A DNA stretch of 50,000 nucleotides from Chiloscyllium plagiosum (taxonomy: Eukaryota): positions 1-50,000 of the forward strand of contig NW_025214733.1 of the NCBI RefSeq assembly GCF_004010195.1, given 5' to 3'. Position numbers and translations under genes: made by a program. Below, piece after piece: positions 1 through 50,000 of this stretch. The notes beneath the pieces were generated by a model. It was given only the letters and a program-made list of their open reading frames with translations, searched no databases and was not told the origin of the DNA. The stretch's first letter is position 1; every line of letters starts with the position of its first letter.

Positions 1-1559
1 ACTTGCAGATCCAGAAGGTAGGAAGATGTTCAAAAACTTTGGAAAGGAAAAGCAAGGAAGAGGTGGGTGATAGTTGGCAAAGAATGGAGGAAACAAGGAA
101 TGTTTCATTAAGAGAATCAATAAATGCAGATTTGAAGAAGGGAAAGAGAGTGAAGCAATTGTTTAATGCACTACTTTTATCACTGGAACACAATTGTGAG
201 ACAAAAGTTCATGAGTGCATTAAAATAAAAATAAACTACAATTTTCCAAAAAAATGAAAACCAATAAATGCAAAGTGGTGTGAATTTACAGAAGCAGCTT
301 CTGAAAACTCAGATTAAGAAAATTGTAATGGGCTGGAGTTAAAAAATGAAAACAAGTACATCAATTGAGGTTTTTTTAAAATAAACTGTGAAGTCTCTCA
401 CTTTAGAGAAGATGCCCCTAAATTTGCATGAAGACACTTTTTTTGGTTGTAACTGGTGAAAGAAGATCATTTACTTCAACTAGAATGTGAAATGTCATTC
501 ACTGAATTGTTTCCTGTTCCACTCCTGCTGTTTTCTCTTGTTTGCACTCCAGCTGAGGTCTACTAAATCATTTGACTAGATATTTGGCCTCTGGCTCTTT
601 ATTCCTTTGTTTCCTACCCTGGCAGACGGTCTATTAAACTCTCTAACCCATTCACATTTAAACATCCTGCTGCTTTGGCATGAAGAAGGAAAGCATTTGA
701 ATGATCTTTCAATAACTCAACACAAACACAGCCGCCAGGTCACCAGAAAACATTTTAGCATTTTCTTTCCTTGTTATTTTTATATATATAAAGCATTGAA
801 CTAATCGCTCACTGTATCTGTAGCCATGTTGTCACTGCTGATTCAAACTGTTGTTTATTGTGGTATCATCAAAAGTGAAAAACAGGCCTCACTGAAGCTT
901 CTCCATGAACTTTCATGTCTCTGCTGGAAAGAAATATTTGAGTGTCAAGACATGAATGATGCAAACACAATCACCTTGTCAAGAGTCAAGAGTAGCTTTA
1001 TTTGTCATTTCTACCATATACAACTGATAGAGTAAAAATGAGACAGCATTTCTCCAGGACCAAGGTGCTACATGGACAACTCACACTACACGATCATACA
1101 CAGGGAGGCATAAGAAGTGAAATACACGCAAGACAGCTCAGTAATTCCTGGCATGTCAAGGCAATAGGCACAGTGGTGTGCAAATTAGAGTGTAAAACAA
1201 GAATGATAATTAATAAAATGTTGTTCTAGCAGCAATTTGAAGTCGTGTAAAGAGTTTCAGATGGAATAGAGTGCAATCATACTGTGTTAAGAAACCAAAT
1301 GGATCAGGGGAAGAAACTGCTGCACAGTCTGGCCGTGAGAGACCGAATGCTCCGGTAACTTCTGCCAGATGGCAGGAGGGAAAAGAGTTTGAGGGATGTG
1401 TGGGATCTTCCACAATGCTCTGAGCCTTTTGGATGCAGCAGCAGCTCAGGGTACTCTCAATGAACCCTCTGTAAAATGTGGTGAGGATGAGGAGTAGGAG
1501 GTGGGCTTTCCTCAGTCTACGCAGAAAGTAGAAACACTGCTGGGCTTTCTTGGCTGTGG

Positions 1560-1776
1560 TTTTGGATTAGTGGTGCTGGAAGAGCACAGCAGTTCAGGCA
1601 GCATCTGAGGAGCAGCAAAATCGACGTTTCGGGCAAAAGCCCTTCATCAGGAATGGAAGGGCTTTTGTCCGAAACGTCGATTTTGCTGCTCCTCGGATGC
1701 TGCCTGAACTGCTGTGCTCTTCCAGCACCACTAATCCAAAATCTGGCTTCCAGCATCTGCAGTCATTGTTTTTACC
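1560..1776. mobile_element. Palindromic Penelope-tail mini-insertion (family A) with 15-bp TSD
   Basis: Arms ~1560-1646 and ~1656-1741 are reverse complements. TSD CTTTCTTGGCTGTGG at 1545-1559 and 1777-1791. The sequence matches the 3' tail of the Penelope elements at 34270-34725 and 48322+. Confidence 0.9.
1617..1654 (-). ncRNA. Minimal type I hammerhead ribozyme motif, intact core
   Basis: Minus strand reads AUUC-CUGAUGA-A-GGGC-UUUU-GCCC-GAAAC-GUC-GAUU: both conserved core boxes, a 4-bp helix II, and palindromic ACGU in place of helix III. Confidence 0.75.
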
Positions 1777-2202
1777 CTTTCTTGGCTGTGGAGGTGTTGA
1801 GGGTCCAGGTGCGATTCTCTGCCAGGTGGATGCCAAGAAATTTGGTGCTCTTCATGATCTCCACGGGGGAATGTCGATAACCAGCAGAAAGTGGTCACTT
1901 CATGCCCTCCTGAAGTTAACAACCATCTTTTTCATTTTGTCCACATTCAGAGACAGGTTGTTGGCTCTGCATCAGTCCATTAGCTGCTGCACCTCCTCTC
2001 TGTATGCTGACTCGTCATTCCTGCTAATGAGACCCACTATAGCCGTGTCATCGGTGAACTTAATGATATGATTTGAGCTGTGCATTTCTGCACAGATGTG
2101 TGTCAGCAGGGTGAACACGTATGAACTGAGCACATAGCCCTGGGGAACCCCTGTCCTCAATGTGATGGTATTGGGGATGCTGTTCCCAATCCGGACTGCC
2201 TA

Positions 2203-2391
<189 letters not shown>

Positions 2392-3029
2392 TCATCTGTT
2401 CAGTGGTTTGGACATTATGTGAACTGCAGGGTGTCCAGTGAGGGAGGCAGCAGTGTCTTAATATGCTTCATCACGAGCCTCTCGAAACACTTCATGATGA
2501 TGGATGTTAGCGCAACAGGGCGGTAGTCATTGAAACAGGACGCTGAAGGTGTTTTGGCACAGGCACAATGGTAGCTGCTTTGAAGCATGTTAGAACTATG
2601 GCACAGCTCAGGGAGATGTCCATGAGAACATATGTCAGTATGTCAGAGCATCCTCTGACCACTCTGTCAGGAATGCTATCTGGTCCAGCAGCCTTACATG
2701 GGTTGTCTCTGCATAGGATTTTCCTCATGTCAGTGTGGTAAGACACAGCACCTGGTCATTGGGATGGGGTGTGGTCTCCCTCGCTGCCACATCATTTTGT
2801 GCCTCAAACCGTGCATTAAACTCATCTGGGAAGGAAGCATCACCACCACAAGCAGGCAATGCTGTTCTGTGGTTGCTAATGGCCTGAATGCCCTTCCACA
2901 TGTAACCAGACAAGGGGGACTGCAGTCACTGTAACAGTTACTGAGATGTCTCCCTGTTCATTATTGTGGGGAAGGTCTTTGATTGCATTGCTCTGATTGG
3001 ATTGCAGACTGTGACATCACAAATATGAA

Positions 3030-3505: not shown

Positions 3506-3845
3506 TGACAAAGGATGCGGAAACACCAACACTGTTTTTCGTCCTCCACTAAACTGCCAGACCTGTTGCGTTTCTCCATCACTTTCTGCTTTTGTTTCAA
3601 GGCACTCTACATTGACTCCATTGGCTTCATCAAGATCTTTGATCTTGGTCAGCAGAGGAGGACTCTTTAAACTGCTACAGAAAACAGGCCGCTACCTGGA
3701 ATGTTGGATATTATTTCTTCTTTCCATCAGTTACAATAACAACAGATGCTTTCACATTCACTGATGAAATAGGGCTGCATCCTGGCACCAACTCTCTTTT
3801 GCATATTTTTCTCCATGCTTAAAAATCAGATTATAATCAATGCCA

Positions 3846-3941
3846 GATTATAGTCCAACAGGTCTATTTGGACTATTACTTGGTGATGTGTGATTTTTAA
3901 CTTTGTACAACCCAGTCCAACACCAGCACCTTCAAATCATT
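3846..3941. mobile_element. Short Penelope-type tail fragment (family C) with small terminal inversion
   Basis: TTATAGTCCAACAGG is followed by its near reverse complement TTGGACTAT..., then GTGTGATTTTTAACTTTGT...CCCAGTCCAACACC. Same family as 19190-19237 and 28255-28404. Confidence 0.6.
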
Positions 3942-5138: not shown

Positions 5139-5160
5139 TTAACGTTTAGGGTCCAGTGAC

Positions 5161-5200
5161 CAGTTCTGAAGAAGGGTCACTGGACCTGAAATGTTAACTG
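5161..5200 (+). ncRNA. Minimal hammerhead ribozyme motif, Penelope-tail family B
   Basis: CAGUU-CUGAAGA-A-GGGUC-ACUG-GACCU-GAAAU-GUU-AACUG: perfect 5-bp helix I (CAGUU/AACUG) and 5-bp helix II. Preceded by an inverted partial copy at 5139-5161. Confidence 0.7.
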
Positions 5201-6329
5201 TGTCTTTTTTCCATCTAGTTTGGGACTTGAATTTATGAAGGGCCCATCATAGTCTTAGAACGTCTCACAATAGTTAACCACCGTTTGTATTGACATTTTT
5301 GTATAGTAGTTGTAAAATGTTAGTAAAACTGACCTCAAATTTGTTCACAAAGAGGTAGAAATTAGTCTGGGCCTTTTTTGACTTGGCATTGCACCATCAG
5401 AGAGACCTGAGGCCATCCTGAAATTGGACCTTTTTTAAAATCCTCAGGGCAGGCTCATGGCACCTGGTATACCTCCTTTGTCAGGCAACCCCCCCCCCCC
5501 GCCAGCTGGGAGAAGTTGGGTCCAGCTCAGGTCATTGTATCAGGGAGAAGGGAGATTCTTGCAGATTGCCAGTGTTTGGAGTTGTAGGAGGATTATTGAT
5601 TGCACTGAGGCTTGTTTTTCGAGACTGTTTTAATTGATGGAATGTTAATGAACTATGCAGCGCCTCCTTGCAGATTCCAACCTTGCTAGAATTGTGCAAA
5701 AATGCAGAAAACTCCTCCCTAACATCTCTGTTTAATTGAATTAAAAGTTGTTCCTAATTACATTTTTATTCATATTAGTACGGAGAATGGTTAAATTCTG
5801 CTGATTCTTATATTCAATGCTGTTCCTATGCTCCAATGATTTGTTTTAAAGATTGAAAGAGGAATTGTTATAAGGTTATGGTCATGTTGTTTAGTTTCAC
5901 ATATAATTTGCAAGCCAGAAATTTTAAAGCTCAGAAATATGTTGGCCTGTCTGAACAGTTACTAAAATCTACAAGTCTTCATGTGAAACTATTCAGTGAA
6001 CTTCATGGCCACCTCTGTAACCTAAAGGTTAGTAACTGAGGACTGAATGATTTCCTTGCAGCATGTAATTTGTAAAAGAGGGCCTCCTATTTGGCTGGAC
6101 GTTTATAAAAAATCATTTTAAGTAAATGATGTATATTTTTACATATTAATCAGTGTTATGCAAATAGATCTGACTTTTAGTTATTGCTTTTCTCAGCTGT
6201 GGACAGTGTGGTAAATTTGCATTTAAATACTCAGATTACAGGAGGGGTCCACAATTCTAGATTTTTGTCTTGTCCTAAAAATATTCCATAGGAGTTAAGC
6301 AGTTTGAATTTATAGCTGTAGCAGTGTTA

Positions 6330-6995
6330 TTTTGGAATATTGCGTGCAATTCTGGTCTCCTTCCTATTGGAGGAATGTTGTGAAACTTGAAAGGGTTCAG
6401 AAAAGATTTACAAGAATGTTGCCAGGGTTGGAGGATTTGAGCTATAGGGAGACGCTGAATAGGCTGGGGCTGCTTTTCCTGGAGTGTTGGAGGCTGAGGG
6501 GTGATCTTATTGAGGTTTATAAAATCACGAGGAGCATGGATAGGATAAATAGACAAGGTCTTTTCCCTGGGTGGGGGAGTCCAGAACTAGAGGGCATAGG
6601 TTTAGGGTGGAGCTGAAAATGTGTTGCTGGAAAAGCGCAGCAGGTCAGGCAGCATCAGGAGAATCGGCGTTTTGGGCATAAGCCCTTCTTCAGGAAATGA
6701 AACGTCGATTCTCCTGTTCCTTGGATGCTGCCTGACCTGCTGCGCTTTTCCAGCAACACATTTTCAGCTCTGATCTCCAGCATCTGCAGCCCTCACTTTC
6801 TCTCATAGGTTTAGGGTGGAGGCTAGTACAATTGCAACATTTAAAAGGCATCTGGATGGGTATATGAATAGGAAGGGTTTGGAGGGATATTTGCCGTGTG
6901 CTGGCAGGGGGGCTAGATTGGCTTGAGATTTCTGATCAGCATGGATGAGTTGGACTGAAGGGTCTGTTGCCGTACTATACATCTCTATGACTCCA
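6330..6995 (+). mobile_element. CR1 LINE 3' fragment interrupted by a palindromic insertion
   Basis: EYCVQFWSPSY, LERVQKRFTRMLPGL and RLRGDLIEVYKI, with tail CTCTATGACTCCATG. Confidence 0.9.
6610..6803. mobile_element. Palindromic Penelope-tail mini-insertion (family A) with 15-bp TSD
   Basis: Inverted arms GAGCTGAAAATGTGTTGCTGG... / ...CCAGCAACACATTTTCAGCTC. TSD CATAGGTTTAGGGTG at 6595-6609 and 6804-6818. Degenerate hammerhead (CUGAAGA...AAAACGCC) on the minus strand. Confidence 0.9.
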
Positions 6996-18615: not shown

Positions 18616-18914
18616 AAGATATCAATTCCTGAGGTGTGGCATGGTGTCAAAACTGATCATCTGCTGACTCCCAAATCCAGCGGAGATAAATGACTTTTTA
18701 TAACTGAGGGAGGAGTCATGGATTAAATTAATTTCCTCTAAATATAATCTTGTATATATTGAATATGTAAGCATGGAAGAAAACAATGCATTCATATATT
18801 TTAAATGTCCTCAACTTCTCACATGGCTTTTGAGGAAGCAATCGCATATTTCAGCTTGGATATTCTAGTGCTTTCTACCCATCAATAATCTGAATAGAAT
18901 GTACTCTAACCCCT

Positions 18915-19040
18915 CAAGAAGGGCTAATGCCCGAAACGTCGATTCTCCTGTTCCCTAGATGCTGCCTGACCTGCTGCGCTTTTCCAGCAACACATTTCCA
19001 CCTCTGATCTCCAGCATCTGCAGACCTCACTTTCTCCTCA
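18915..19040 (+). mobile_element. Penelope-tail fragment (family A), 5'-truncated inside the hammerhead core
   Basis: AAGAAGGGCTAATGCCCGAAACGTCGATT...GATGCTGCCTGACCTGCTG...CCAGCATCTGCAGACCTCACTTTCTCC. Confidence 0.85.
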
Positions 19041-19976
19041 CCGCTTTACTCTATTTAACTATCCATGGCCATTTCCATCCTGAGTGCTCCATTCTTTTCA
19101 TTCAAAGGGCAAGCTTCTCTCAGGCTGTTCTGCTGGTGACATTGTAATATGACATTATTCAGTAATAGCTCAGGGGTGACAATCATACCACAAATAAACC
19201 TGTTGGACTATAACCCGATGTTGTGTGATTTTTAACATTCTACTTGTGAAGGAGAACATTAGCCAGGGTTCATGTTTCTAATCACTATCCACAAGCTCCC
19301 ACAGTGTAGTAGCCCACCAATACTCATTGCGTGGACTACTGCACATCTCAGACAAAATACTCAATGACTATTCGTTTCTGTAAGGCTATTGAGCTACTAC
19401 CTAAAGAACAAAAAGGGAGAAAAAAAAATTATGTTTGTATATGCAATGATGGTTAATATTACTCTTCAGTTCTTTCTGCCCGAAAATAGTTCTGATCCAC
19501 AGGTTAGGCAACAAGGAAGGTCTTCATTCCACTCTGTACTACTGGCACCTATCTGACTCTTAGCCATCCAACCCAACTGTCTCTTAAAGAGTTTTGAGTT
19601 TCTGTGATAACATGCACATTTATATGCATATTGTAGTTCGAAGGTATGAATAGTAATGGTAAAAGTTCTAATAATTGTTCTATCACATGGCTGACCATGA
19701 ATTTCTCCCACTGTTGTAACTTCTGCTAACATACTCTAAGGCAAGAGGCAAGTTAATACGCAACCTATTTTGGGGGCATTTGGGGGCTATTGAGTCCTGG
19801 AGTGGGACCTGAACCTGGAGTTTATATCTCAGAGGAAGTGATACTACTCACTGTGTCACAAGTCCTTGAACATAGTATCGTTATAGATGATAAAGCTAGC
19901 TTTTTCAACAGAATCCTTTATTTCAGGAAAGTTTTCGAATTCTGTTTAAGTCTGTCTTTTCTTATTTAAATTGCAG

Positions 19977-20864: not shown

Positions 20865-20996
20865 CCGTTTATCTCTCAGCCCCCTTGGGCTAGAAGCCTA
20901 ATTCCTGATGAAGGGCTTATGCTTGAAACATTGATTCTCCTGCTCCTCGGATGTTCCCTGACTGGCTGTGCTTTTCCAGCACCACACTCTCCAACT
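20865..20996 (+). mobile_element. Penelope-tail fragment (family A) with CpG-decayed hammerhead
   Basis: ATTC-CTGATGA(20905-20911)-AGGGC-TTAT-GCTT-GAAAC-ATT-GATT, followed by the family A tail. Confidence 0.8.
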
Positions 20997-28254: not shown

Positions 28255-28404
28255 GACTTGGAGGAGCCGGTGTTGGACTGGGGTGGACAAAATTAAAAAT
28301 CTCACAATACCAGGTTATAGTCCAATAGGAAGAATCAGTGCTTCGAAAGCTAGTGTTTCCAAATAAATCTGTTGGACTATAACCTGGTGTTGTGATTTTT
28401 AACT
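28255..28404. mobile_element. Palindromic Penelope-type tail mini-element (family C) with hammerhead remnant
   Basis: Left arm TTAAAAATCTCACAATACCAGGTTATAGTCCAATAG is the reverse complement of right arm CTGTTGGACTATAACCTGGTGTTGTGATTTTTAA. The centre holds GAAGAATCAGTGCTTC-GAAAGCTA-GTG (28345-28352). Confidence 0.7.
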
Positions 28405-29190: not shown

Positions 29191-29730
29191 ATGGGTCCAG
29201 TTATTGGCATGTCTCCAACGAAGAAAACTGAGACCCCAGGAATAGGGGAGACTTGCAGTTTGAATTCAAGTTGCCCCATTGACAGTTTGCCAGACATGGC
29301 TGGTGCAACAAGCATGAAAGCCATTTCTGCAAACAAAGGAATAATGGATGATGAAGAGCTCACAAACCTGAACTGGCTTCATGAAAATAAAAATCTCCTA
29401 AAAAACTTCAGCCTGGGTAATGAGGTGCTTCGCAGTGTTAGTCCTACACGTGACATCACTGAAGAAGATTCTATGTCTTCACCTCTTTCAGATTCTCTGA
29501 ACAATGACCAGCGCGGATTAAACTCCAAGCCTCCATATTCTTTCAGCTGCCTTATTTTTATGGCAATTGAACACTCGGCCAGAAAATGCCTTCCAGTTAA
29601 GGATATTTATAATTGGATATTGGAACGTTTCCCATATTTTACCAATGCACCTACTGGTTGGAAGAACTCTGTTAGGCACAATCTTTCCTTGAACAAATGT
29701 TTCCGGAAGGTGGAGAAAGACCATGGCAAG
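29191..29730 (+). CDS. FOXN2: Forkhead box N2 (FOXN2/3 subfamily), first coding exon: N-terminus plus most of the forkhead domain
   Basis: Translates as MGPVIGMSP...[13 protein letters not shown]...[65 protein letters not shown]. Acceptor ttttctttggcag ends at 29177 and donor AAG|GTAAGC starts at 29731, phase 0 (540 nt). MGPVIGM, EHS..KCLPVK and HGK match my recollection of FOXN2 rather than FOXN3. Confidence 0.92.
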
Positions 29731-30264
29731 GTAAGCATACGTTGCTCAATGCCTCAACGTTATCCATGTCTTCTACTTAATAGCTGTCAGCTAGTAGGTG
29801 TACAATACTGGAAATTGGGTGTCACACTTACTAGTAAGAGTAAGGTTCAGATTTGATTCCTGGTCTGTGTCTGTATTTAATAAATATGAGCATTGATGGA
29901 AATTAAACTAGAGTTCCTGCTTCCAAATATTTTAGTTTTCTAGCAGAATTCCTGGATGTAAGTGCTATGTCATGATGAGAGGCTGAGTAGGTCAGGCCTT
30001 TATTTATTGTGTATGGAAACGTAGAAAATTGTGAGCAAACTGAGTGGAGAAGATGCATCCACTCACGAAGGGAATTTGAAACAAGATGGGCACAGTTTCA
30101 AATGAGATTTCTCATTTCAGGCTGGGAAGGAGGTATTCCTATTTTCAGAGGCTCATGTGTTTTTGGAATCTGTTTTCCAGAGATTTGAAGGCAGGATCTT
30201 AGAGTATATCCATAGTTGGGTTCTGCAGATTTCTGATCCACTCTGGTTAAGTATTATGATTGAA

Positions 30265-33258: not shown

Positions 33259-34262
33259 GAGGTGTGGGCGCAGGTTTCGCAATTCCTGTGGTGGCAGGGG
33301 AAGGTGCCGGGAGGGGAGGGTGGGTTGGTTGGGGGCCTGGACCTGACTAGGGAGTTGCAGAGGGAACTGTCTTTATGGAAAGCGGATGAGGGAAATATAT
33401 GGGGTCCATTTGTAGATGGTGGAGGATGATATGATGTATATGGAGGCTGGTGGGGTAGGAGGTGAGAACCAGGGAGGGTTCTGTCCTTGTTGCGGGTGGA
33501 GGGGTGGGTTTCAAGGGCGCAGGTGCAGGAAGTGGATGATATACCCTGGAGGGCATAATCAACCACGTGGGACGGGAAATTGCGGTCTTTAAAGAATGAG
33601 GTCATCTGGTCTGTTCTGTGGTGGAACGGGTCCTCCAGCAGATGAGGTGGAGGAATTGGGAATAAGGGATAGCATTTTTACAGGAGGCAGGATGGGAGGA
33701 GGTGTAGTCTAGGTAGCTGTGGGAGTCAGTGGGTTTGTAGATGTCAGTGTTGGTCACCATTGACTGAGATGGAGAGGTCCAGGAAGGGGAGGGAGGTGTC
33801 TGAGATGGCCCAGATGAATTTAAGGTCTGGGTGGAATGAATTGGTGAAGTTGATGAACTGTTCAACCTCCTTGTGTCACCAATGCCGTCATCAATGTAGG
33901 GGAGGAAAAGGCGGGAAATGGTGCCAGTGTAACTATGGAATTTGGGCTGTTCCACGTAGCTGACAGAGGCCACAGCTGTGCCTGTCCATATGGGTGCCCA
34001 TGGCTACCCCCTTTCGTCTGGAGGAAGCGGGGGGATTCAAAGGAGAAATTATTGAGGGTGAAGACCAGTTCAGCCAAACAAATGAGAAGGTCAGTGGAAG
34101 GGTACTGGGAGAGGAAGAAACTGAGGGCTTCGAGGCCCTGGTCATGGTGGATCGAGGTGTGTAGGGACCGGATGTCCATGGTGAAGATGAGGCTTTGGAG
34201 TCCAGGGTGGAGGTGGAGGGTATGGGTGGTGCCCAGAACATATGTGGGGAGTTCCTGGACTG
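33259..34262 (-). mobile_element. Penelope-like element (Neptune-type) RT/thumb/Cys-linker, inverted segment
   Basis: Frameshifted peptides MDIRSLHTSIHH, LNNFSFE, GVAMGT, YIDDGIG, YKPTDSHSYLDYTSSHP..CKNAIPYSQFL and PGTFPCHHRNCETCAH. Confidence 0.9.
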
Positions 34263-34272
34263 GGGGGGGGGC

Positions 34273-34725
34273 TCGCCTCCATCGCCACCCGACACCAGGA
34301 GGAAGAACGCCTCATCTTCCGCCTAGGGACCTTCCAAGCCCATGGCAGCAATGTGGACTTAACCAGTTTCCTCATTTTCTCCCCCCTCCCCCCCGGCAAA
34401 CAACCTTATCCCAGATTCAACCTTCCAACTTGGCACCGCCTCATGACCTGTCCCTCTCCCTTACACCTATCTGCTCCACTCTCCCCTCTGACCTAACACC
34501 TTTACCCCCACCTCCATCCACCTATCTCACTCTCAGCTACCTCTCCCCCAGCCCCACCCCTCCACTTATCTCTCCACCTCCTAGACTCCCAGCCTCATTC
34601 CTGATGAAGGTCTTTTGCCCAAAACTTCGACTCTCTTGCTCCTCGGATGCTGCCTGACCTGTTGTGGTTTTCCAGCACCACACACTCTATTCTAATCTGC
34701 AGCATCTGCAGTCCTCACTTTCGTC
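34273..34725 (+). mobile_element. Penelope-like element 3' end (GIY-YIG C-terminus plus tail with degenerate hammerhead)
   Basis: EEERLIFRLGTFQAHGSNVD, a pyrimidine-rich UTR, and ATTC-CTGATGA(34601-34607)-AGGTC-TTTT-GCCC-AAAACTTC. Confidence 0.88.
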
Positions 34726-36044
34726 CTGTAAGGCAATTAGGCTTGAAGAGCTAAATCTCACCTTTTTGAGTTATCTTTTCAACCTGTCCAGATTCAATAT
34801 GGAGGTCAGATGTTTTGGGTCATAATCTTTACTCCAGGTTTTGCTGAAGAAGCTTTTCAAAATGTACTTGTTCCTGGAATGTGGGTGTAGCTGACTGGGT
34901 CAGCATTTATTGCCCATCCTTACTGCTGATTAGAAAGTGGTGATGAGCAGCTGTCTTGAGCAACTGTTCACGTTAGTGACAATTTTGCTATTTTCTCAAT
35001 TTACAGATCTCCTCTAAAGTAATCTTTTATTTCTTGTCCTGTTACTGGCTTCATCTCCTGAGATGGGGAAATTGGCATAAATCTTTAGAAATTATAGTAT
35101 TGTTAATAGTGCTTCATTGTTTAATTTAGCTTTTGATGCAATTTTTCTTTTGTTTATAAATGTGAAATCTTCTATCTTAGCTTTTGGATAATTATGGGTT
35201 GTTGGGATTTCTTACCAAAGGTTAATTGACTCAAATGGAACCGTAACATAGAATACAGTTCTATGTTTGCTCGTGACCCAAAGCACCTCGTGGATGAGCT
35301 GCTTTGAGTGGCTGGATTTGTTACACATCTATCCCATTTAGCATGGTACTGGTGCTACACAATATGATGAATGGTATCTTCATTGTGAAGACATGACTTT
35401 GTGACAGAATTGTGCAGTGGTCACTCATAACTAAATAGTGCATCAGGTACTTAGTCAGTATGGCAGTCTTAAGCTGAAACATCCATGTCAGCTAGACCAG
35501 CTAATCAGTCTTATTTTCCAGCTCTAATGCTGTAGTCCTGCAAGTTATTTCCTCCCATTTCCTTTTTTAAATTGTTGATTTGAATGTTTGTTGAAGATGC
35601 AATGAAGCAGGTCTTTCCTCTCTCAAGTTTGTTCGCTCATGACCTATTGGAGGTCAGTCTGACGTTATGTTCTTTAAGCATCTTGTCAGCTCAGTTATTA
35701 GTGCCGCTGAGCCATTCTTAGTGATTAACATTTATGCTCCCTACCCAGAAAACATTTTGTGCCCTTGCTACCTTAAGAACTTTTTCCAAATGGTGTTTAA
35801 CATGGGGGAGTTCTAATTTATTAGCTGAGGGAGGGCAGTGGATGGTAATCAGCAACAGGTTTCCTTTACCTATATTTGACATGATACCATATGGCTTTGT
35901 GGTGTCTGGGTGTGTTGAAGGCTACCACAGCAATTCCCTGCTGACAGTATTCTACCATGCTGCCACCTTTGGATCAACCTGCTACTGAGAACGGTGATTG
36001 ATACTGGCTTAAATTCTGTGACCATTGCTAATTTGGACTTACAA

Positions 36045-36136
36045 ACAAAAGCTGGAGAACCTCAGCAGATCTGGCAGCATCTGTGGAGAGGAAATAGAGT
36101 TAACATTTTGAGTCCAATGATCCTTCTTCAGAACAG
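36045..36136 (-). mobile_element. Penelope-tail fragment (family B) with degenerate hammerhead
   Basis: Minus strand reads GTT-CTGAAGA-AGGATC-ATTG-GACTC-AAAAT-GTT-AACTC...CAGATGCTGCCAGATCTGCTGAG. Homologous to 5161-5213. Confidence 0.75.
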
Positions 36137-39414: not shown

Positions 39415-39740
39415 GGTGGCTCAGTGATTAGGACTGCTGCCTCAGAGCACAAGGGACTCTGGTTTGATTCTTGCTTCAAGCAACTGTCCATGTGGAATTT
39501 GCACATTCTCCCTGTGTCTTGTGGGTTTCCTCCAGGTGCTCTGGTTTCCTCCTACAGTCCAAAGATGTGCAGGTTAGGTGAATTGGCCATGTCAAATTGC
39601 TCATAATGTTCAGGGATGTGTGGGTTAGGTGCATTAGTTAGGGTTACATGTAGGGTAATAGGGTAGGGGAATGGATCTGGGTGGGTTACTCTTCGGAGGG
39701 CCTGTTTCCACACTGTAGGGGTTCAATGGCATTCTATGAT
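39415..39740 (+). mobile_element. V-SINE (HE1-type)
   Basis: Collinear with 30357-30658 and ends in a CR1-like tail CCTGTTTCCACACTGTAGGG...TTCTATGA. Confidence 0.9.
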
Positions 39741-41194
39741 GTTAAATCGCAATAAATAAAACAATACTTGACTTGTATACAATTTGTGCTGTCATTTGTT
39801 AATAGTTGTGCTATAGCAGGGTAATGCCAAGACAGATTAATTTGCTCATGATAAAATGGAACAGTTGCATCCCACTGAGCAAGAGTGATTGTGATTACCA
39901 TTTTAAAATTTTGAGTGTCAATACCACCAGTAACAGTTTAATTTGGCAATGTATTACAATAGGACTCTGGTGTTTTCTTTCTGATTTGATACTGACTTGT
40001 GTAGAGTTGAAATGGTGCAATAATTGCCCTTATTAAAGCTAAATTGTTTGTGACCGGCTTGTTTTCTGTTACTGTGCAAAAGACTGTAGAACATAATGTT
40101 TATTTAAGCTGCAAAGTTTCTATAGTAAAGCATTTCGATGTTCCCTGTTCTCTTGTTGTTCAATGCCTCCTTCCACATTCTGGAGATGAGGTATCTGTTT
40201 CCAGAAATACATCTTAGAATCAAAATCACCAGCCAAGAAAATGAGAAAACAAAACTATTCCAGCTGTGACACAACTTACAACATCATCCTGGGAGTTTTC
40301 TGTATTTGGCTTTAATCTCTGCATTAATCTTCATGGGAATCAAGATGAGAGAAATGTTAATGAAATTTATGACCAGAATATCTTTAACTGATCACATATA
40401 TCCATTTATATGTACTTCTTCGAAAACAAAAATTCAAATTGACTACAGTCTTAAACCAAAATAAGTGAGTAAAGTAGTTGTTTTATCCAGAACCTCGCTT
40501 TCTGTAGCATCTCGACAGGGATGGGAAGATGGTCGGCTTATCTCAGCCTACCATCCCTTACAAACTGGATACTTGGGGAGGGGAGTGTTATTAGATATCT
40601 GGAGCAGCATATGGTAACTTGGTTACTTATTTGGTCTTAAAGGAAGAAATTGGGGTTTCAAATGGCGCTTCCTAAAGTAAAATAGTTGAAAGTAAAAATA
40701 CTAGGTTTCATCATAAAGTGGTTGACACATGCCACATCTGAAACCAATTTTTTTTTTTTCTCTTTCTCTTCTTAAATGCATTGAAACATTGCGATTTGGA
40801 AAAGAATGAAAATATAGTTATAGACTGGAAATTTGCGGAAAGATTGTGGGAGAAAGTTAATCAAGAGCAAACTTGAAGTTGGTTGTGATCATTCTTTACT
40901 GCCCAAAACATTGCCATCCTCCATCTGGTCCACAATGACCTGCAAACCACAATCCCCACCATCAGAAACATCACCGACCCTATCTTGGTGAAGATGTATG
41001 TGTGCTTATTCAGAAATTGAGCTTACAGTCAATGTTGACTCCTTCTCTGGATTTGAGAAAGTAAGCCTCCTTTTAACAAGCTCCCAATGTACAATACCAC
41101 CTCTCGTTTATCAAGATCAACAAAATCCTGGAAAATATTGGACATGTTCCAAAACTTGGGAGCCTTCTCTTTTTTTTTAGAAAGTCTTTTTTTG

Positions 41195-41412
41195 CCTGCA
41201 TATCCTTGGACGCTACAGACAGTTTAGCATAGCTAATACACCTAAGCTGCACGTCTTTGGACTGTGGGAGGAAACCAGAGCACCTGGCAGAAACCCATGC
41301 TGACACTGGGAGAATTGTCTGTGTGGAGTTTGCACCGTTACCCTAGGCTGGATTTGAACCTGGGTCCCTGGTGCTATGAGGCAGCAGTGCTAACCACAGA
41401 GCTACTATGCCC
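41195..41412 (-). mobile_element. V-SINE (HE1-type) with an internal 20-bp inversion
   Basis: Reverse complement of the V-domain and tRNA head. Segment 41316-41335 is in the opposite orientation. Confidence 0.85.
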
Positions 41413-43379: not shown

Positions 43380-43550
43380 AGTTGAAAAATGTGGTGCTGG
43401 AAAAACACAGCAGGCCAGGCAGCATCCGAGGAGCAGGAGAATCGACGTTTCGGACATAAGCTCCTCAGATGCTGCCTGGCCTGCTGTGTTTTTCCAGCAC
43501 TACATTTTTCAACTCTGGTCTCCAGCATCTGCAGTCCTCACTTTTTCCCA
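43380..43550. mobile_element. Palindromic Penelope-tail mini-insertion (family A) with ~14-bp TSD
   Basis: Arms AGTTGAAAAATGTGGTGCTGG / CCAGCACTACATTTTTCAACT. TSD GCTCATGTTAAGCA (43367-43380) versus GCTTATGTTAAGTA (43551-43564). Confidence 0.88.
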
Positions 43551-44289
43551 GCTTATGTTAAGTATCCTGGCTTTGTGTCAACACCAAATGGCAAAGCAAG
43601 ACAGAAGTACTGTGAGCTTGGTAGCTCTGGCTGAGAGGCAAAGCACATTAAGGCAAGGTAAGGATGAGCATCCAGGTGGGCTCAAAGTGAGTGAGAGCCA
43701 TGAGAGTAAGCAAACAGCAATGAGATGCAGCCTGTTCTGAGCTGTGAGCTGGGTGTCTGTCCCTGTGGGTATAGTATCTTTGCAGCAACATTGCAATGAT
43801 AATTGCAGATGCAACCTGTGGTGTAGTTTTATAGTGCAGCGGTATGCTAGAAGTGGATCAGAAATGTGCCATGATGATTTAGAGGGGCTTGCAAGTGGTG
43901 CCTAGATCCATGGACATACAGTCACTGCCCATAGAGCATGTTCTGACATGCTGGTATTAGATGTCCAGAATGGAGATCCTTGGGAATAACTGGGGACCTG
44001 AAATCACCAGGCACCCATGTTAGGGTTTATTGGTTTCATTTTTTTTTCATGATGGGTAGGAGAATAAGAGAAGGAATATTAATAAGATAAAATCTGCAGT
44101 TTATTAGGCTGATAACAAAATCTCCCTTTTAATAAGTAGCTCACCACTCCTGAACAAGAATCTTGTTTTGACATCTGGAACTCTGTTAGGAAATGTAGGT
44201 TTTTGCTCCTGCTCGACTTCTCATGTGATTCTCTGAGATTTCTTGCCATAGCCCATATCATTTAGATACCTATCAGATTCTGTCCAAAA

Positions 44290-45035
44290 AGACATTTGAA
44301 ATAAATAGCTTGGGATGGGGAGTTGACAAACCAGTCATATCTGGTGAAGATAAAATCCCTGGTTTGGATATCATCTGCAAACAGTGATATCATATTTGCA
44401 TATCGCTTCATTCAAGAAGAAAATAATGCCTGACGAATAGTAATATTATCTAATAAAAAAGATGGTACAAGTTCAGGAATCTATAGGACAGTAAGTTTTA
44501 TGCCAATTGAAGGCATGATAATGGATTTTTTCCTCAAAGCTGTAATATAAAAATATCTAGAAACCAAAAATGCAACATTATAGATTTCAAAAGAAGTCAT
44601 GCTTGACCAACCTTATTGTACTATTTGAAGGAATAAAGTGTAGATGAATGTGACACAACAGATGTAATAATGTTGAATTTTCAAATGTCTTTTGATAAAG
44701 TCATAGCATGTGGAGTCAGAGAACAGGTACTACAATAGATAGCAAGCTGGCTACAAAAGAGTAAACAGTCAAAGGGTATTGAACAATGAAGGGAAGCATG
44801 CCAAATGCTGCCTGCAACCCCACTTTCAAAGAATTATGTACCTGCACCCATTAGGTTTCCCTTTTTGGCAAAACTGCCCAGGGCCCTCCCACTAACTGTA
44901 TAAGTTCTGCCGTGGTTTGCCTTACTAGAAAACAACCGTCCATTACCATTCTCTGTCTCCTACCTTCAAGCTAATTTTGTATCCAATCAGCGAGCTCTCC
45001 CTGAATCCCACGTGATCTAAGCTTACTCACCAGCT
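44290..45035. mobile_element. Decayed CR1 fragments (+ strand ~44290-44790; - strand ~44800-45035)
   Basis: Remnants such as GGAATCTATAGGACAGTAAG (GNYRPVS-like), CATGCTTGACCAACCTT (SCLTNL) and GAATTTTCAAATGTCTTTTGATAA. Confidence 0.6.
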
Positions 45036-45706
45036 TCTCTGAAAGAGGCCTTGCTTGCAAGAGGTGATAAGAGTGAAGAGGTTTTGGGTTCGGAATCACT
45101 AATGTGTATACAAATAAAGCAGATAAATTATCTGAGCTTGTACAGATCTTTTGTTCAGGCGTACTTGCAAGTATTGTGCATAGTTGTAATTTCCATATGA
45201 TAAACTCTAAAGCAGTGGAGACAGTTCAAAAGGATAATAGCATGACTTAAGAACTTATCAAAAAATATCAAAAAAAGCTGAAAGGTTAAGAAATGTACAA
45301 TATTGAGCAGGAATTGTGCATGTATAAGAATTTCCAAACTGAATTTATGGGAAAATCCCATTCCTGTATTTCATTAATTAGATAATTTATTATGAATAAT
45401 TACAGCAACTTTGGAGCTTATTAAATATATGAAAATGTATTAATATTTGGAATTTGTGTGTGGTCATATTTTGTTTTATAATGGTGTCTGAGGAGAGGAC
45501 GAGTTTGGGTATAAACCAGCAGAGGTAATTAGCAAATAAATAAACAGAATACATTTGAAGAAGAGTTACTGAGACCTGTGCTAACAGGGCATGTTCATCA
45601 GCCATTGGTCATTTATTTTTTATTGGTCTAAATTGTCAAATATTGACTGAGTCACTTATGTAACTTATGAAATAAATATTTTGCATTTTTATTTTCTCTT
45701 TGATAG

Positions 45707-45834
45707 ACTGTTGGGAAGGGTTCACTGTGGTGTGTAGACCCACAGTACAGGCCAAACCTCATTCAAGCCCTAATGAAGACTCCATATTATTCAACAACAC
45801 AAGTCTTTTACACACCGCCAGCCTCGCCTCCAAG
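45707..45834 (+). CDS. FOXN2: FOXN2 second coding exon (end of forkhead domain)
   Basis: Acceptor ttttattttctctttgatag|, then [42 protein letters not shown], then donor AG|GTAAGT at 45835. Continues in phase 0 from 29730. GKGSLWC(V/I)DP is the conserved FoxN wing. Not in the ORF track. Confidence 0.93.
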
Positions 45835-46159
45835 GTAAGTGCCTAGTTCCTGTCAGCTTTCTTGTAAATTCATGAACTGTCTCATACTTTTAGAGAGTAA
45901 TACTTTTATTTTAGAAAGCAGCCTTCATTGTTCCCCATTCATTCTGTTGATAAAGGGACTCCCAAGTGTGTCAGCAAATTATATATGCTAAGAAGATCCT
46001 GAGTTGAATGTCTGCTGAAATGCAGATGTCTGGACTGTCCAGAAGTTGCCAGCTGTTTTGTATTGAGTTTGTATCTCTCATTTGGCGTTGTGGTTTTAAG
46101 AACATGCAAAATTGGAACAGTCACACAACCACTCATGTTTGCTCTGCTATTCAGTACAA

Positions 46160-46740
46160 TCATGGCCAATCTTCACCCTCAACTTCACTTTTCCACCCAC
46201 CTCCCATATCCTTTAATTCCATGAGTGACCAAACATGTATTTCAGCCTTAATTATAATCAACAATGGAGTATCATAACCCACTGGGCAGGTCATTCCAAA
46301 TATCCACAACCCATGGCCTGAAGATGTTTGTTGTCATCACATTCTTAAATGAACTCTCCCTTTTCCTTAGACTATGCTCCTATGTCCCAAATTCCTTGGT
46401 CAGAGGAAAAAAGCTTTTTTAGAGACTAATATCTTTCAAAGAATTATTAATTATAGGCTCCTTATGTTCTCTTCGCAAACTGCTTTCTGATCTTTGTGTC
46501 GTTACCAAATTTAATAACCATACCTTCAGTCTTTTCATCCGAATCAATTATTTCAATTGTAAAGTGTTGAGGTTCAACCCTTGTGGCACACTGCCTGTGA
46601 TATCCTACTCTCCATTCCTATTAATCAAGCAATCTCCTATTCATGCCAATATGTTGCCCCCGACACCGTGAGCTTTTATTTTCTGAAATAACCTTTAATA
46701 TGACATAGATTTCTAGAAGGTACAAGTACAATATATCCAC
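46160..46740 (-). mobile_element. Decayed CR1 fragments, antisense
   Basis: Resemble the reverse complement of a CR1 3' region (compare 47965-48321) and of RT pieces. Confidence 0.55.
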
Positions 46741-46744
46741 TAGT

Positions 46745-47962
46745 TACAAAAGAGGAAGTGTTGGAGGTCTTAGAAAACATAAAATTGGATACATCTCTGG
46801 GTCCTGATCAAGTCTTTTGAGAGTGTTGTGGATTGTTAGGGAAGAAATTGTGGGGTCTCTAGCAGAAATGTTTGTATCATCTATAACCACAGCTGAGGTG
46901 CCAGAGGACTGGAGGGTGGCTATAAATGTGCCTTTATTTAAGAAAGGCTGTAAGGAGAACCTGGGAACAATAGATCTGTGAGCCTCACATTGGTGGTGGG
47001 TAAGTTGTTGGAGCTGAATCTGAGAGATAGGAATTGTCAGCATGGTTTTATGTGAGGGAAATTATGTCTCGCAAGCTTGACTGAGTGTTTGAGGAAGTAA
47101 GCAAAAGATTGTTGAGGGCAGAGTGATAGACGTTTAACACATGGACTTCAGTAAAGCCTTTGACCAGGTTCCACATGGTAGACTAATTAGTAAAGGTAGA
47201 TCAAGTAGGATTCAGGGAGAGCTTGCCAATTGGATACATAATTGGCTTGATGGTAGGAGACAGAGGGTGGTGCCGGAGGCGTATTTTTCAAACTGAAAGC
47301 CTATGACCAGGAGTGTTCCACGGGGATTGGTATGGATCCACTTTTGTTTGTCATTTTTATAAATGATTTGAAAGAGAATATAGGTGGCATGGTTAGTAAG
47401 TTTGCAGATGATACCAAAATTTGGAGGTGCAGAGGACTGTGAAAAAGATTACCAAATATTACAAAGAGCTCTTGATGAATTGGGTGAATGAGCTGAGTGG
47501 TGATAGATGGAGTTTAATTTGGATAATTGCGAGGTGTTGAATTTTGGTAAAACAAACAAGGGCAGGATTCATACAATTATTGATAGAGCCCTAGAACCAA
47601 GAGACTTAGCGGTTCAGGTACACAATTCTTTGAAATTCAAAGGTTGACAGGGTAATTAAGGTGTTTAGTACACTTGTCTTTGCTCAGACTATTTTGAGTA
47701 TAGGAGTTGGGACATCATGTTGAGGTTGTAAAGGTTATTGGCGAAACCTTATCTGGAGTACTGTGTGCAGTTCTGGTTGCTTTATTTTATGAAGGATATT
47801 ATTAAATTGGATAGGGTTCAGAAAAGACTTACCAGGATGTTGCTGGGAATGGAGGGTTTGAGTTATAAAGAGATGCTGAATAGGTTGGGATTTCTGTCAC
47901 TGGAGAGTAGGAAGTTGAGTGACCTTTTATAGAGGTTTATAAAATTATGAGGGGCATAGATA
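46745..47962 (+). mobile_element. CR1 LINE ORF2 RT region
   Basis: VPEDWRVAI.VPLL.KG, MDFSKAFDQVPH, SKFADDTKI, LEYCVQFW and RVQKRLTRML. Confidence 0.92.
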
Positions 47963-48321: not shown

Positions 48322-50000
48322 AAGTGCTGGGAAAACACAGCAGGTCAGGCTGCATCCAAGGAGCAGGAGAGTCGACGTTTTGGGCATAAACCCTTCATCA
48401 GGAATATGGAGGTTGGAGGGACGGAGAGATAAATAGGAGGGTCAGGTTGGGGGAAGGTAGCTGGGAAGGCAATAGGTAGATGCAGGTTGGAAGGGAGGGT
48501 GAAGCGGATAGGTGGGAAGAAAGATGGACAGGTAGGACAGTGCTGAGTTGGAGGGTTGGCTCTGGGATGAGGTGGAGAGGGAGAGATGAGGAAACTGGTG
48601 AAGTTGATGTTGATACCATGTTGTTGGAGGGTCCCAAGGCAGAAGATGAGGCATTCTTCCTCCAGTCGTTGGGTGGCTTGGATGTGGCAGTGGAGAAGGC
48701 CTAGGACTCGCATGTGCTTGGCGGAGTGGAGTGGGAGTTAAAGTGGTCAGCCACAGGGTGGTGGGATTGCTTGGTGCGTGAGTCCCAGAGGCGTTCCCTG
48801 AAATGTTCTGTGAGTTGGCGTCCTGTCTCCCCAGTGTAGAGGAAACCACTTTGAGAGCAACAGACACAATAGATGAGGTGTTTGGATGTGCAGGAAAATC
48901 TCTGCTGGGTGTGGAAGGATCCTTTGGGGTCTTGGACGAAGTTGGGGGCGGGGGGGGAGAGAAGGTATGGGTGCAGGTTTTACACCCCTTACAGCAGTAA
49001 GAGAAGGTGCCGGGAGTGGAGGGAGGGTTGGTGGGGGATGTGGACCTAATGAGGGAGTCGCGGAGGGAATGGTCTGTGGAATGCAGATAGGGGTGAGGAG
49101 GGAAATATATCACTGGTGGTGGGGTCTGATTGTAGGTGGTGGAAATGGTAGAGGATAAGCACTGTATCTGGAGATTAGTGAGGTGGATGGTGGGGACTAG
49201 GTGGTTCTATTCTTGTTGCGGTTGGTTCAAGGGTGGAGGTGTGGAAAGTGGAGGAGATGCGCTGGAGAGCATTGATCACGTGGGAAGGGAAATTATGGTC
49301 CTTGAAATAGTGGAATTACTCCTCGTGGGAGCAGATATGGCAGATGCAAAGGAATTGAGAGAAAAAAAATGTTTTTACAGGAGAGGGGGAGGGCAGAAAT
49401 GTAGTCCAGGTAGCTGTGGGAGTTGGTGGGTTTGAAATAGATGTCTGTGTTGAGTTGGTCACCGAGATGGAGACGGAAAGGTCCAGGAAGGGGAGGAAGG
49501 TGTCCAAGTAAACTTGAGGTCAGGGTGGAAGGTGTTCGTGAAGTTGATAAACTGCTTAACCTCCTTGTGGGAGCATGAGGTGGTGCCAATACAGTCATCA
49601 ATGTAGTGGAGGAAAAGGTGGGAGATGATGCAACTTCAGAAGATGGAGGTTCCATGTATCTGAAGAGGCAGGCATAGCTAGGACCTATGCGAGTGCCCAT
49701 AGCTATCCATTTGGTCTGAAGGAAGTGGGAGCATTCGAAGGACAAGTTGTTGAGGGTGAGGACCAGTTCCACCAATCAAATAAGCGTGTTGGTGGAGGGG
49801 TACTGGTTGCGTCGGCAGGAGAGGAAGAAACTGGGAGCGTGGAGGCCTGGATAGACAAGTAGAGGGACTGGATGTCTATGGTGAAGATGAGGCGTCGGCG
49901 GAGGGTGTGGGTGGTGTTCGTAAGTATGTGGGGAGTTCCTGGATGAAGGGGGATCAGGACGGTGTCAAGATGTGAGGAGATAAATTCAGTGAGGCAGGAG
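48322..50000 (-). mobile_element. Penelope-like element (Neptune-type): RT, Cys-linker, GIY-YIG and 3' tail with hammerhead; runs off the window
   Basis: ELVLTLNN.SF, IAMGTRIGPSYACLF, FLDLSVSI, YFKPTNSHSYLDY, PGTFSYCCKGCKTCTH and LEEECLIFCLGTLQQHGINI. Hammerhead on the minus strand at 48374-48401 (CUGAUGA-A-GGGU-UUAU-GCCC-AAAAC-GUC; G12 mutated). Confidence 0.92.

What the first reader, a model, noticed from the sequence alone, without database searches (positions are those of the whole stretch)
1617..1654. Intact minimal hammerhead ribozyme core lacking helix III (dimer-type), family A
Seen: the minus strand reads AUUC-CUGAUGA-A-GGGC-UUUU-GCCC-GAA-ACGU-C-GAUU. The same motif recurs in decayed form near 6665-6696(-), 18915(+), 20905(+), 34601(+), 43440(-) and 48374(-). 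At 34601 and 48374 it lies directly in the 3' tail of Penelope-like elements. Established: Penelope-like retroelements carry minimal type I hammerheads, and variants with a short palindrome instead of helix III cleave as dimers. Inference: this is the only family A copy here with all core residues, so it may still be catalytic as a dimer paired through ACGU. Helix I is weak in this copy.
Basis: partly seen in the sequence, partly recalled or inferred. Interest (0 to 1): 0.75.

Follow-up and report, generated by a model that had tools for sequence, protein, structure and literature searches.

The report
Hairpin-locked hammerhead in Penelope mini-insertion
The small self-cutting-RNA (hammerhead) motif is real and has an intact core, but it is one arm of a 217-base head-to-head stub of a Penelope-like jumping gene whose other arm is predicted to pair with it and block it, so this is likely an ordinary, inactive copy of a known kind.

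Summary
The motif is at 1617-1654(-) as described: intact core, 4-bp helix II, ACGU palindrome in place of helix III, cut site after 1623. It is the inverted arm (1560-1655) of a 217-bp insert with a 15-bp target-site duplication, a direct arm (1656-1741, 84/86 identical) and a one-sided 35-nt tail, inserted in an old LINE. That matches the published insertion unit of Penelope-like elements; the window's parent elements have RT, CX2-5CxxC linker and GIY-YIG (Neptune-type). In read-through RNA, G8 to G1.1 is predicted to lie in an 86-bp hairpin (about 34 kcal/mol to open), so activity of this copy is unlikely. Weak helix I is family-wide; helix II shows no compensatory change in 6 family copies; copy 20905 also keeps all core residues. 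The family is very abundant in four sequencing runs. Best-supported 5' ends lie 2-5 bases before C3, not at the cut site. Minimal dimer-type hammerheads in these elements are published, and this scan noted the same family on other pieces of this genome (147 notes fit 'hammerhead'). New member of a known kind; low interest.

The parts
1617..1655 (-). Minimal type I hammerhead motif: helix I 5' strand 1651-1654, CUGAUGA box 1644-1650, bulged A 1643, helix II 1631-1642, GAA 1628-1630, ACGU palindrome 1624-1627 (A15.1-U16.1), C17 at 1623, helix I 3' strand 1619-1622
1560..1655 (-). Inverted, tail-less, 5'-truncated copy (96 nt) of the end module of a Penelope-like element; starts 5 nt before C3
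   Evidence: family flank diverges from the window behind 1655 (table 7)
1656..1741 (+). Direct 5'-truncated copy, begins at G8 (lacks C3-U7); antisense to the hammerhead arm in a minus-strand transcript
   Evidence: 84/86 complementary; folds as one hairpin, -170.4 kcal/mol, z -25
1742..1776 (+). 35-nt one-sided 'tail' typical of Penelope-like insertions
   Evidence: 30-40 bp tail in PMC8557442 and PMC11167929
1545..1559 (.). Left copy of 15-bp target-site duplication
1777..1791 (.). Right copy of 15-bp target-site duplication (15/15 identical)
1453..2531 (-). Decayed non-LTR retrotransposon (LINE) ORF interrupted by the insert: RVT_1 and ALKBH8_N Pfam matches; the name Rex1/Babar-like is recalled, not from a call
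   Evidence: RVT_1 E 1.5e-9, ALKBH8_N E 3.5e-12; TAKK peptide repeated on both sides of the insert
6613..6803 (.). Second head-to-head family A insert, 18-bp duplication 6595-6612/6804-6821, one-sided tail; core broken (G12A, U16.1C)
43380..43554 (.). Third head-to-head family A insert with one-sided tail and a short, partly decayed duplication (8 exact bases); no intact core
48324..49885 (-). Decayed Penelope-like element (RT with YIDD at 49605, CX3CxxC linker 48973-49011, GIY-YIG about 48704-48946) followed 190 nt after the ORF end by a family A hammerhead (G12A)
33270..34727 (.). Decayed Penelope-like element with inverted 5' part (RT on minus strand 33270-34266) and plus-strand end module with hammerhead at 34601 (G12A) and tail
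18912..19038 (+). Solo family A end module with tail; G5C
20901..20991 (+). Solo family A end module; all invariant core residues kept, helix II weakened, palindrome broken

Best explanation
This is a 217-bp head-to-head insertion of the hammerhead-bearing end module of a Penelope-like retrotransposon into an older LINE, and its intact hammerhead is likely inactive because the insert's second arm is predicted to pair with it in any read-through RNA. Shown: 15-bp duplication, two 5'-truncated arms in opposite orientation, a tail on one arm only, the same layout at two more sites in the window, and the same module behind Penelope-like ORFs at 33-34 kb and 48-50 kb. Inferred mechanism, from in vitro work on the anole element (PMC11167929): the GIY-YIG endonuclease cut both strands 15 bp apart; each 3' end primed reverse transcription internally on the element RNA, one at the tail-less start and one 35 nt further at the tail start; both cDNAs stopped at the hammerhead (one 5 nt before C3, one at G8) and were joined head to head. 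Because the core is copied together with the sequence behind the cut site, the template RNA was uncleaved. In the parent element the ribozyme likely works, if at all, as a weak dimer needing protein help. The intact core here likely reflects recent insertion: three CpG sites lie in and around the core, and 3 of the 6 family A copies that retain the C3-A9 region have lost G12.
For: Duplication, arms and tail. Same layout at 6613-6803 and 43380-43554. Parent elements: tblastn of two full-length RT+GIY-YIG proteins hits 33270-34266 and 48609-49853 at E 1e-20 to 1e-26; GIY-YIG Pfam above cut-off in 3 of 6 relatives scanned; 3 of 6 clusters looked up carry names, all from cartilaginous fishes. Published architecture: inverted 5'-truncated copy plus one-sided 30-40 bp tail (PMC8557442); two RT start sites flanking the tail and extension of both strands (PMC11167929); minimal hammerheads, mostly solo, some in opposite strands 100-700 bp apart (PMC4209133). 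Locking: MFE -170.4 kcal/mol; opening costs 34.4 kcal/mol and helix II forms only if the RNA starts at 1660 or later; the plus strand has no CUGAUGA box before its arm. Abundance: 52,571, 23,782 and 51,420 contigs laid in runs X1, X3, X7, with depth on the arm about 1000-fold above the LINE flank.
Against: All folding results are nearest-neighbour predictions without tertiary contacts, proteins or co-transcriptional effects. No genome was held, so no genome-wide count of independent insertions was made. The two-strand priming step is carried over from a Poseidon-clade element, whereas this family is Neptune-type by motif only (no tree). Arm identity can overstate youth if the arms are homogenised by gene conversion. 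One recurrent fold-back joint (1648/1654) occurs in 9, 3 and 7 contigs of X1, X3, X7 and 10 RNA reads, which would also fit amplification of some palindromes as units.
Confidence: 0.85

Rival explanations
1. This copy is a working dimer-type ribozyme in vivo: two RNAs pair through ACGU and cleave after C17.
For: All 11 invariant core residues, H17=C, four Watson-Crick pairs in helix II and a perfect palindrome; the only match of the strict descriptor in the window; related minimal hammerheads cleave weakly as dimers (PMC4209133).
Against: Antisense arm upstream. Even the free arm prefers a fold in which U4-G8 pairs with the cut-site strand (-11.4 against -7.9 kcal/mol), and the double hammerhead is 9.5-12.3 kcal/mol above two monomers. 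In run X21 no place where many molecules begin or end was listed, and the reads on the flank next to the insert carry 9 or more differences, so none is shown to come from this locus; that library is poorly suited to show cleaved ends.
Confidence: 0.04
2. The palindrome is a MITE-like unit that transposes as a whole.
For: Long inverted arms; a recurrent 1648/1654 fold-back joint in several contigs of three DNA runs.
Against: The three family A palindromes in the window have different junctions, different subfamily variants, duplications of different length (15, 18, about 8-12 bp) and a one-sided tail; one search lists many different opposite-strand joints; this copy's junction is not among the 15 joints shown (9 not shown).
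Confidence: 0.06
3. The ribozyme is irrelevant but the insert matters as an 86-bp hairpin, a substrate for Dicer or ADAR when transcribed as part of a host RNA.
For: Near-perfect hairpin on both strands; family reads occur in both directions in polyA RNA (906 and 734 at 1616-1624) and 10 reads carry a fold-back joint; a FOXN-type exon lies at about 29.5 kb on the plus strand, so the site could be in a long upstream intron (not tested).
Against: No read tied to this locus; no small-RNA data; differences in RNA cannot be called editing without DNA of the same individual.
Confidence: 0.15

Closest known systems
Minimal hammerheads (min-HHR) in pseudo-LTRs of metazoan Penelope-like elements (Cervera and de la Pena 2014, PMC4209133; Lunse, Weinberg and Breaker 2016, seen only as a title in the reference list of PMC6765202)
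   Same: Type I, no helix III, bulged base between A9 and 10.1, G10.1-C11.1 pair, palindromic 15.2-16.2, short helix I, mostly solo truncated copies, found in fish Neptune/Poseidon elements.
   Different: Helix II is 4 bp (7-8 bp in Schistosoma motifs); helix I is only 2 bp plus a mismatch (as short as the D. virilis variant); the main-text parts read name no shark example (supplements not seen).
Insertion unit of endonuclease-positive Penelope-like elements: inverted 5'-truncated copy next to a direct copy, one-sided 30-40 bp tail (Craig et al. 2021, PMC8557442)
   Same: Inverted plus direct 5'-truncated copies, 35-nt tail at one end, variable-length target-site duplication.
   Different: Extreme miniaturisation: both arms are under 125 nt and meet within the hammerhead, so the unit is a perfect hairpin.
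Poseidon element of Anolis carolinensis, PAc (Frangieh et al. 2024, PMC11167929)
   Same: Two RT start sites bracketing the tail, both strands extended, uncleaved RNA as template, hammerhead lacking helix III.
   Different: Poseidon clade (no CX2-5CxxC linker) against Neptune-type here; protein-assisted cleavage was shown there and is untested here.
Non-LTR retrozymes of animals (bioRxiv 10.64898/2026.07.22.740005)
   Same: Non-autonomous, hammerhead-bearing, derived from pseudo-LTRs; reported in the one chondrichthyan genome sampled.
   Different: Retrozymes are head-to-tail tandems with a hammerhead in each unit; this insert is head-to-head with a single complete core.

Membership tests
Minimal type I hammerhead of PLEs | CUGANGA and GAAA boxes, U16.1, H17 | tested here: met
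Minimal type I hammerhead of PLEs | Helix II closed by G10.1-C11.1, with an unpaired base after A9 | tested here: met
   4 bp GGGC/GCCC, bulged A 1643
Minimal type I hammerhead of PLEs | No helix III; palindromic 15.1-16.1 | tested here: met
   ACGU
Minimal type I hammerhead of PLEs | Helix I of 4-5 bp (2 bp in D. virilis) | tested here: inconclusive
   2 bp + U-U + 1 bp; mismatch in 6 of 6 family A copies
Minimal type I hammerhead of PLEs | Covariation of stems across copies or families | tested here: inconclusive
   0 compensatory changes in the 3 helix II pairs counted; 1 in helix I (C-G to U-A) between families A and C; 68 of 500 shuffles as high; 8 sequences
Minimal type I hammerhead of PLEs | Lies in the terminal repeat of a Penelope-like element | tested here: met
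   same module 190 and 231 nt behind PLE ORF ends
Minimal type I hammerhead of PLEs | Self-cleavage as a dimer | not testable with these tools
   folding predicts it is blocked in context
EN+ Penelope-like element, Neptune-type | PLE-type RT followed by C-terminal GIY-YIG endonuclease | tested here: met
   (elements at 33-34 kb and 48-50 kb; the insert itself is non-coding)
EN+ Penelope-like element, Neptune-type | CX2-5CxxC linker between RT and EN (Neptune and Nematis) | tested here: met
   48973-49011(-); P0017 position 746, P0087 position 755; criterion from PMC8557442
EN+ Penelope-like element, Neptune-type | RT phylogeny places it in Neptune rather than Nematis | not tested
PLE insertion unit | Inverted 5'-truncated copy, one-sided 30-40 bp tail, target-site duplication | tested here: met
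Non-LTR retrozyme | Head-to-tail tandem with at least two complete hammerheads | tested here: not met
   head-to-head, one complete core
Rfam hammerhead families | Match to a covariance model | tested here: not met
   none among 16 matches at E<=10
MITE | Unit copied as a whole with fixed ends and fixed duplication length | tested here: not met
   3 window palindromes with different junctions and duplications; genome-wide not tested

The most novel reading that the evidence does not exclude
These mini-insertions are a genomic record of the PLE reaction itself: the element's RNA begins a few bases in front of the hammerhead, reverse transcription starts internally 95-130 nt downstream on both strands of the cut, and runs off that 5' end, so the hammerhead marks the RNA start or a stop signal for RT instead of cutting the template; the head-to-head by-products then lock the ribozyme and would supply double-stranded RNA against the whole family.
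Probability: 0.25. Interest if true: 0.55.

Novelty: new member of a known kind. Interest (0 to 1): 0.2.

Why it matters
As a single copy it matters little: the ribozyme class, its dimer model and the inverted insertion architecture are in print. Its value is as a clean, young example with every hallmark in 250 bp, and as a warning that an intact core is not evidence of activity when the motif is followed or preceded by its own antisense. The open question it touches is what PLE hammerheads are for (PMC8557442 calls the function unclear; PMC11167929 found cleavage dispensable in vitro). The pile-up of 5' ends just before the core, not at the cut site, in a family with tens of thousands of contigs per run makes that question testable on genome data.

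Tried and rejected
No whole genome held. Pattern scans found 0 matches in viral contigs and 0 in metagenome contigs, so no outside loci were available for an alignment or a covariance model. No RNA holder was listed for 1300-2000. Pfam finds nothing in the 9 read-through frames of the two decayed PLEs except one spurious Ribosomal_S27 match. Two word-based protein searches gave nothing: one search was in the wrong frame, one search had 3 candidates and no hit; the full-library search did work. The count of CX2-5CxxC in 134 of 153 proteins was dropped because the pattern also matches cysteines inside the GIY-YIG domain. A seeming asymmetry of CpG decay (C11.1U, G16.2A, C17U shown; G12A not shown) was not used: 75 rows are hidden and G12A is in 3 window copies. 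The apparent CUGAGGA core at 43468(-) is a chance product of a fold-back junction. miRNA-precursor matches are below gathering scores and only reflect the hairpin. Lunse et al. (PMC5785218) is not held. Look-ups of earlier notes by sequence and near this place were blank.

Full report
Observation. The minus strand from 1654 to 1617 carries the motif exactly as written. With standard numbering C3 is 1650, G8 1645, G12 1630, the ACGU palindrome 1627-1624 and C17 1623. A strict descriptor finds this one match in 50 kb against 0.017 per random sequence (5 of 300 with a match). The six other copies are real. Two statements need correction: the copy at 20905 also keeps all invariant core residues, though with a weakened helix II and a broken palindrome, and the helix I mismatch is shared by 6 of 6 family A copies aligned. 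Rfam lists no hammerhead among its 16 matches at E<=10.

Anatomy. The motif sits at the centre of a palindrome: arms 1560-1645 and 1656-1741, 84 of 86 complementary, 10-nt spacer. The insert spans 1560-1776 and is flanked by a perfect 15-bp duplication (1545-1559, 1777-1791). It interrupts a decayed LINE ORF (RVT_1 E 1.5e-9, ALKBH8_N E 3.5e-12), and the duplicated bases repeat the peptide TAKK on both sides. The inverted arm starts 5 nt before C3 and has no tail; the direct arm starts at G8 and carries a 35-nt tail. Two more family A inserts in the window have the same layout with other junctions (6613-6803 with an 18-bp duplication; 43380-43554). The seven family A loci cover 1,015 bases, 2.0% of the window.

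Parent element. The same module follows the ORF ends of two decayed elements at 190 and 231 nt. An 81-residue open stretch at 48704-48946 has 723 relatives at E<=0.001; of 6 scanned, 3 pass the Pfam GIY-YIG cut-off and one also RVT_1; two 880-residue relatives align over both elements at E 1e-20 to 1e-26; the 3 named clusters of 6 looked up are from Rhincodon, Leucoraja and Heptranchias, so the host is likely a cartilaginous fish. A CX3CxxC linker precedes the endonuclease, the mark of Neptune and Nematis in PMC8557442. No tree was built.

Can this copy cleave? In a minus-strand read-through RNA the antisense arm is made first. The region folds into one hairpin of -170.4 kcal/mol (z -25). G8 to G1.1 have P(unpaired) of 0.008 or less, helix II has P 4e-13, and forcing the open ribozyme costs 34.4 kcal/mol. 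Helix II returns only when the RNA starts at 1660 or later. Even then U4-G8 is predicted to pair with the cut-site strand (-11.4 against -7.9 kcal/mol), and the double hammerhead lies 9.5-12.3 kcal/mol above two monomers. The plus strand has no CUGAUGA box before its arm. These are predictions without tertiary contacts or proteins; the anole PLE hammerhead cleaved only with protein present (PMC11167929), so a weak free fold does not exclude activity of the parent family, but an 86-bp duplex is a different order of obstacle.

Why is the core intact? G12, the ACGU palindrome and C17 each lie in a CpG. Of the 6 family A copies that retain the C3-A9 region, 3 have G12A; in run X1 the CpG changes at 11.1, 16.2 and 17 are seen in about 12%, 14% and 9% of depth. 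The arms of this insert differ at 2 of 86 sites and the duplication is perfect, so young age is the simplest reason (inference). Helix II shows no compensatory change in 6 family A copies, only G-U wobbles and mismatches; one compensatory change in helix I separates family A from a second family (copies at 5166 and 36131), which is not above shuffles (68 of 500).

Sequencing runs (4 of the 24 runs listed; stretch 1400-1660, one arm only). 52,571, 23,782 and 51,420 contigs were laid in X1, X3 and X7, with depth on the arm about 1000-fold above the flank. The best-supported loose ends on the 5' side are at 1652-1655 in all three (X1: 299, 400, 720, 1057 contigs); 1655 also collects all longer copies because the query leaves the family there; no end at the cut site (1622/1623) is among the 24 rows shown (727 not shown). 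Many different opposite-strand joints are listed, one (1648/1654) in all three DNA runs and in 10 RNA reads. RNA run X21 gave 1,941 reads among 12,955,460 read (about 2% of the run), in both directions, with no pile of starts or ends; none is tied to this locus. The empty-site evidence is inconclusive.

Mechanism. Shown: duplication, two opposed truncated arms, one-sided tail, link to PLE ORFs, retention of sequence on both sides of the cut site. Inferred: a staggered double cut, priming from both 3' ends at the two internal RT starts described for the anole element, termination of both cDNAs at the hammerhead, head-to-head joining. The result is a dead-end by-product whose ribozyme is likely locked by its own antisense.

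Comparison and novelty. It works like, and by sequence features is, a minimal PLE hammerhead (PMC4209133: parts 1-2 of 4 of the text read, supplements not seen, which may list shark motifs). The insertion layout is in PMC8557442 (passages). PMC11167929: parts 1-2 of 4 read. bioRxiv 10.64898/2026.07.22.740005: part 1 of 5 and passages (supplements closed). PMC6765202 and PMC6155905: passages. Lunse et al.: title only. Three paper searches showed no listing devoted to shark fold-back mini-PLEs; that is a limited search, not proof of absence. Earlier notes of this scan describe the same family, fold-backs and 5'-end clustering on other pieces of this genome; they are unchecked AI notes, and the idea that the RNA starts before the core is taken from them and only partly tested here. 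Verdict: new member of a known kind, interest 0.2.

Noticed in passing
window 5139-5201: A second hammerhead family (C3 at 5166, plus strand) with intact core, 5-bp helix II and a 4-5 bp helix I, also in a small fold-back; a decayed relative at 36096-36136(-). On paper a better ribozyme than family A.
   Followed up: partly
window 28293-28402, 3838-3923, 19191-19236: A third short repeat family, again partly as head-to-head palindromes; no intact hammerhead core found in these copies.
   Followed up: partly
window 29191-29760 (+): Coding exon of a forkhead gene closest to FOXN3/FOXN1 among solved structures (E 6e-37); the PLE copies at 33-50 kb probably lie in its intron.
   Followed up: partly
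window 33270-34727: Penelope-like element whose RT part is inverted relative to its 3' end module: the same head-to-head geometry at kilobase scale.
   Followed up: partly
window 1594, 1586, 1573 (run X21): Variants far more common in RNA than in DNA runs; 1594 T>C is strongly one-directional (167 of 712 against 19 of 667). A highly expressed copy or editing; cannot be told apart without matched DNA.
   Followed up: no
window 1622-1649 (-): The U4-G8 stretch can pair with the cut-site strand (5 bp, two G-U), a built-in inactive fold in copies with U7; about 5-30% of family depth has A7 instead, depending on the run.
   Followed up: partly
window 39416-41405 and 44824-47635: Pairs of inverted repeats 1.6-2.8 kb apart at 73-92% complementarity, possibly old DNA transposons.
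   Followed up: no
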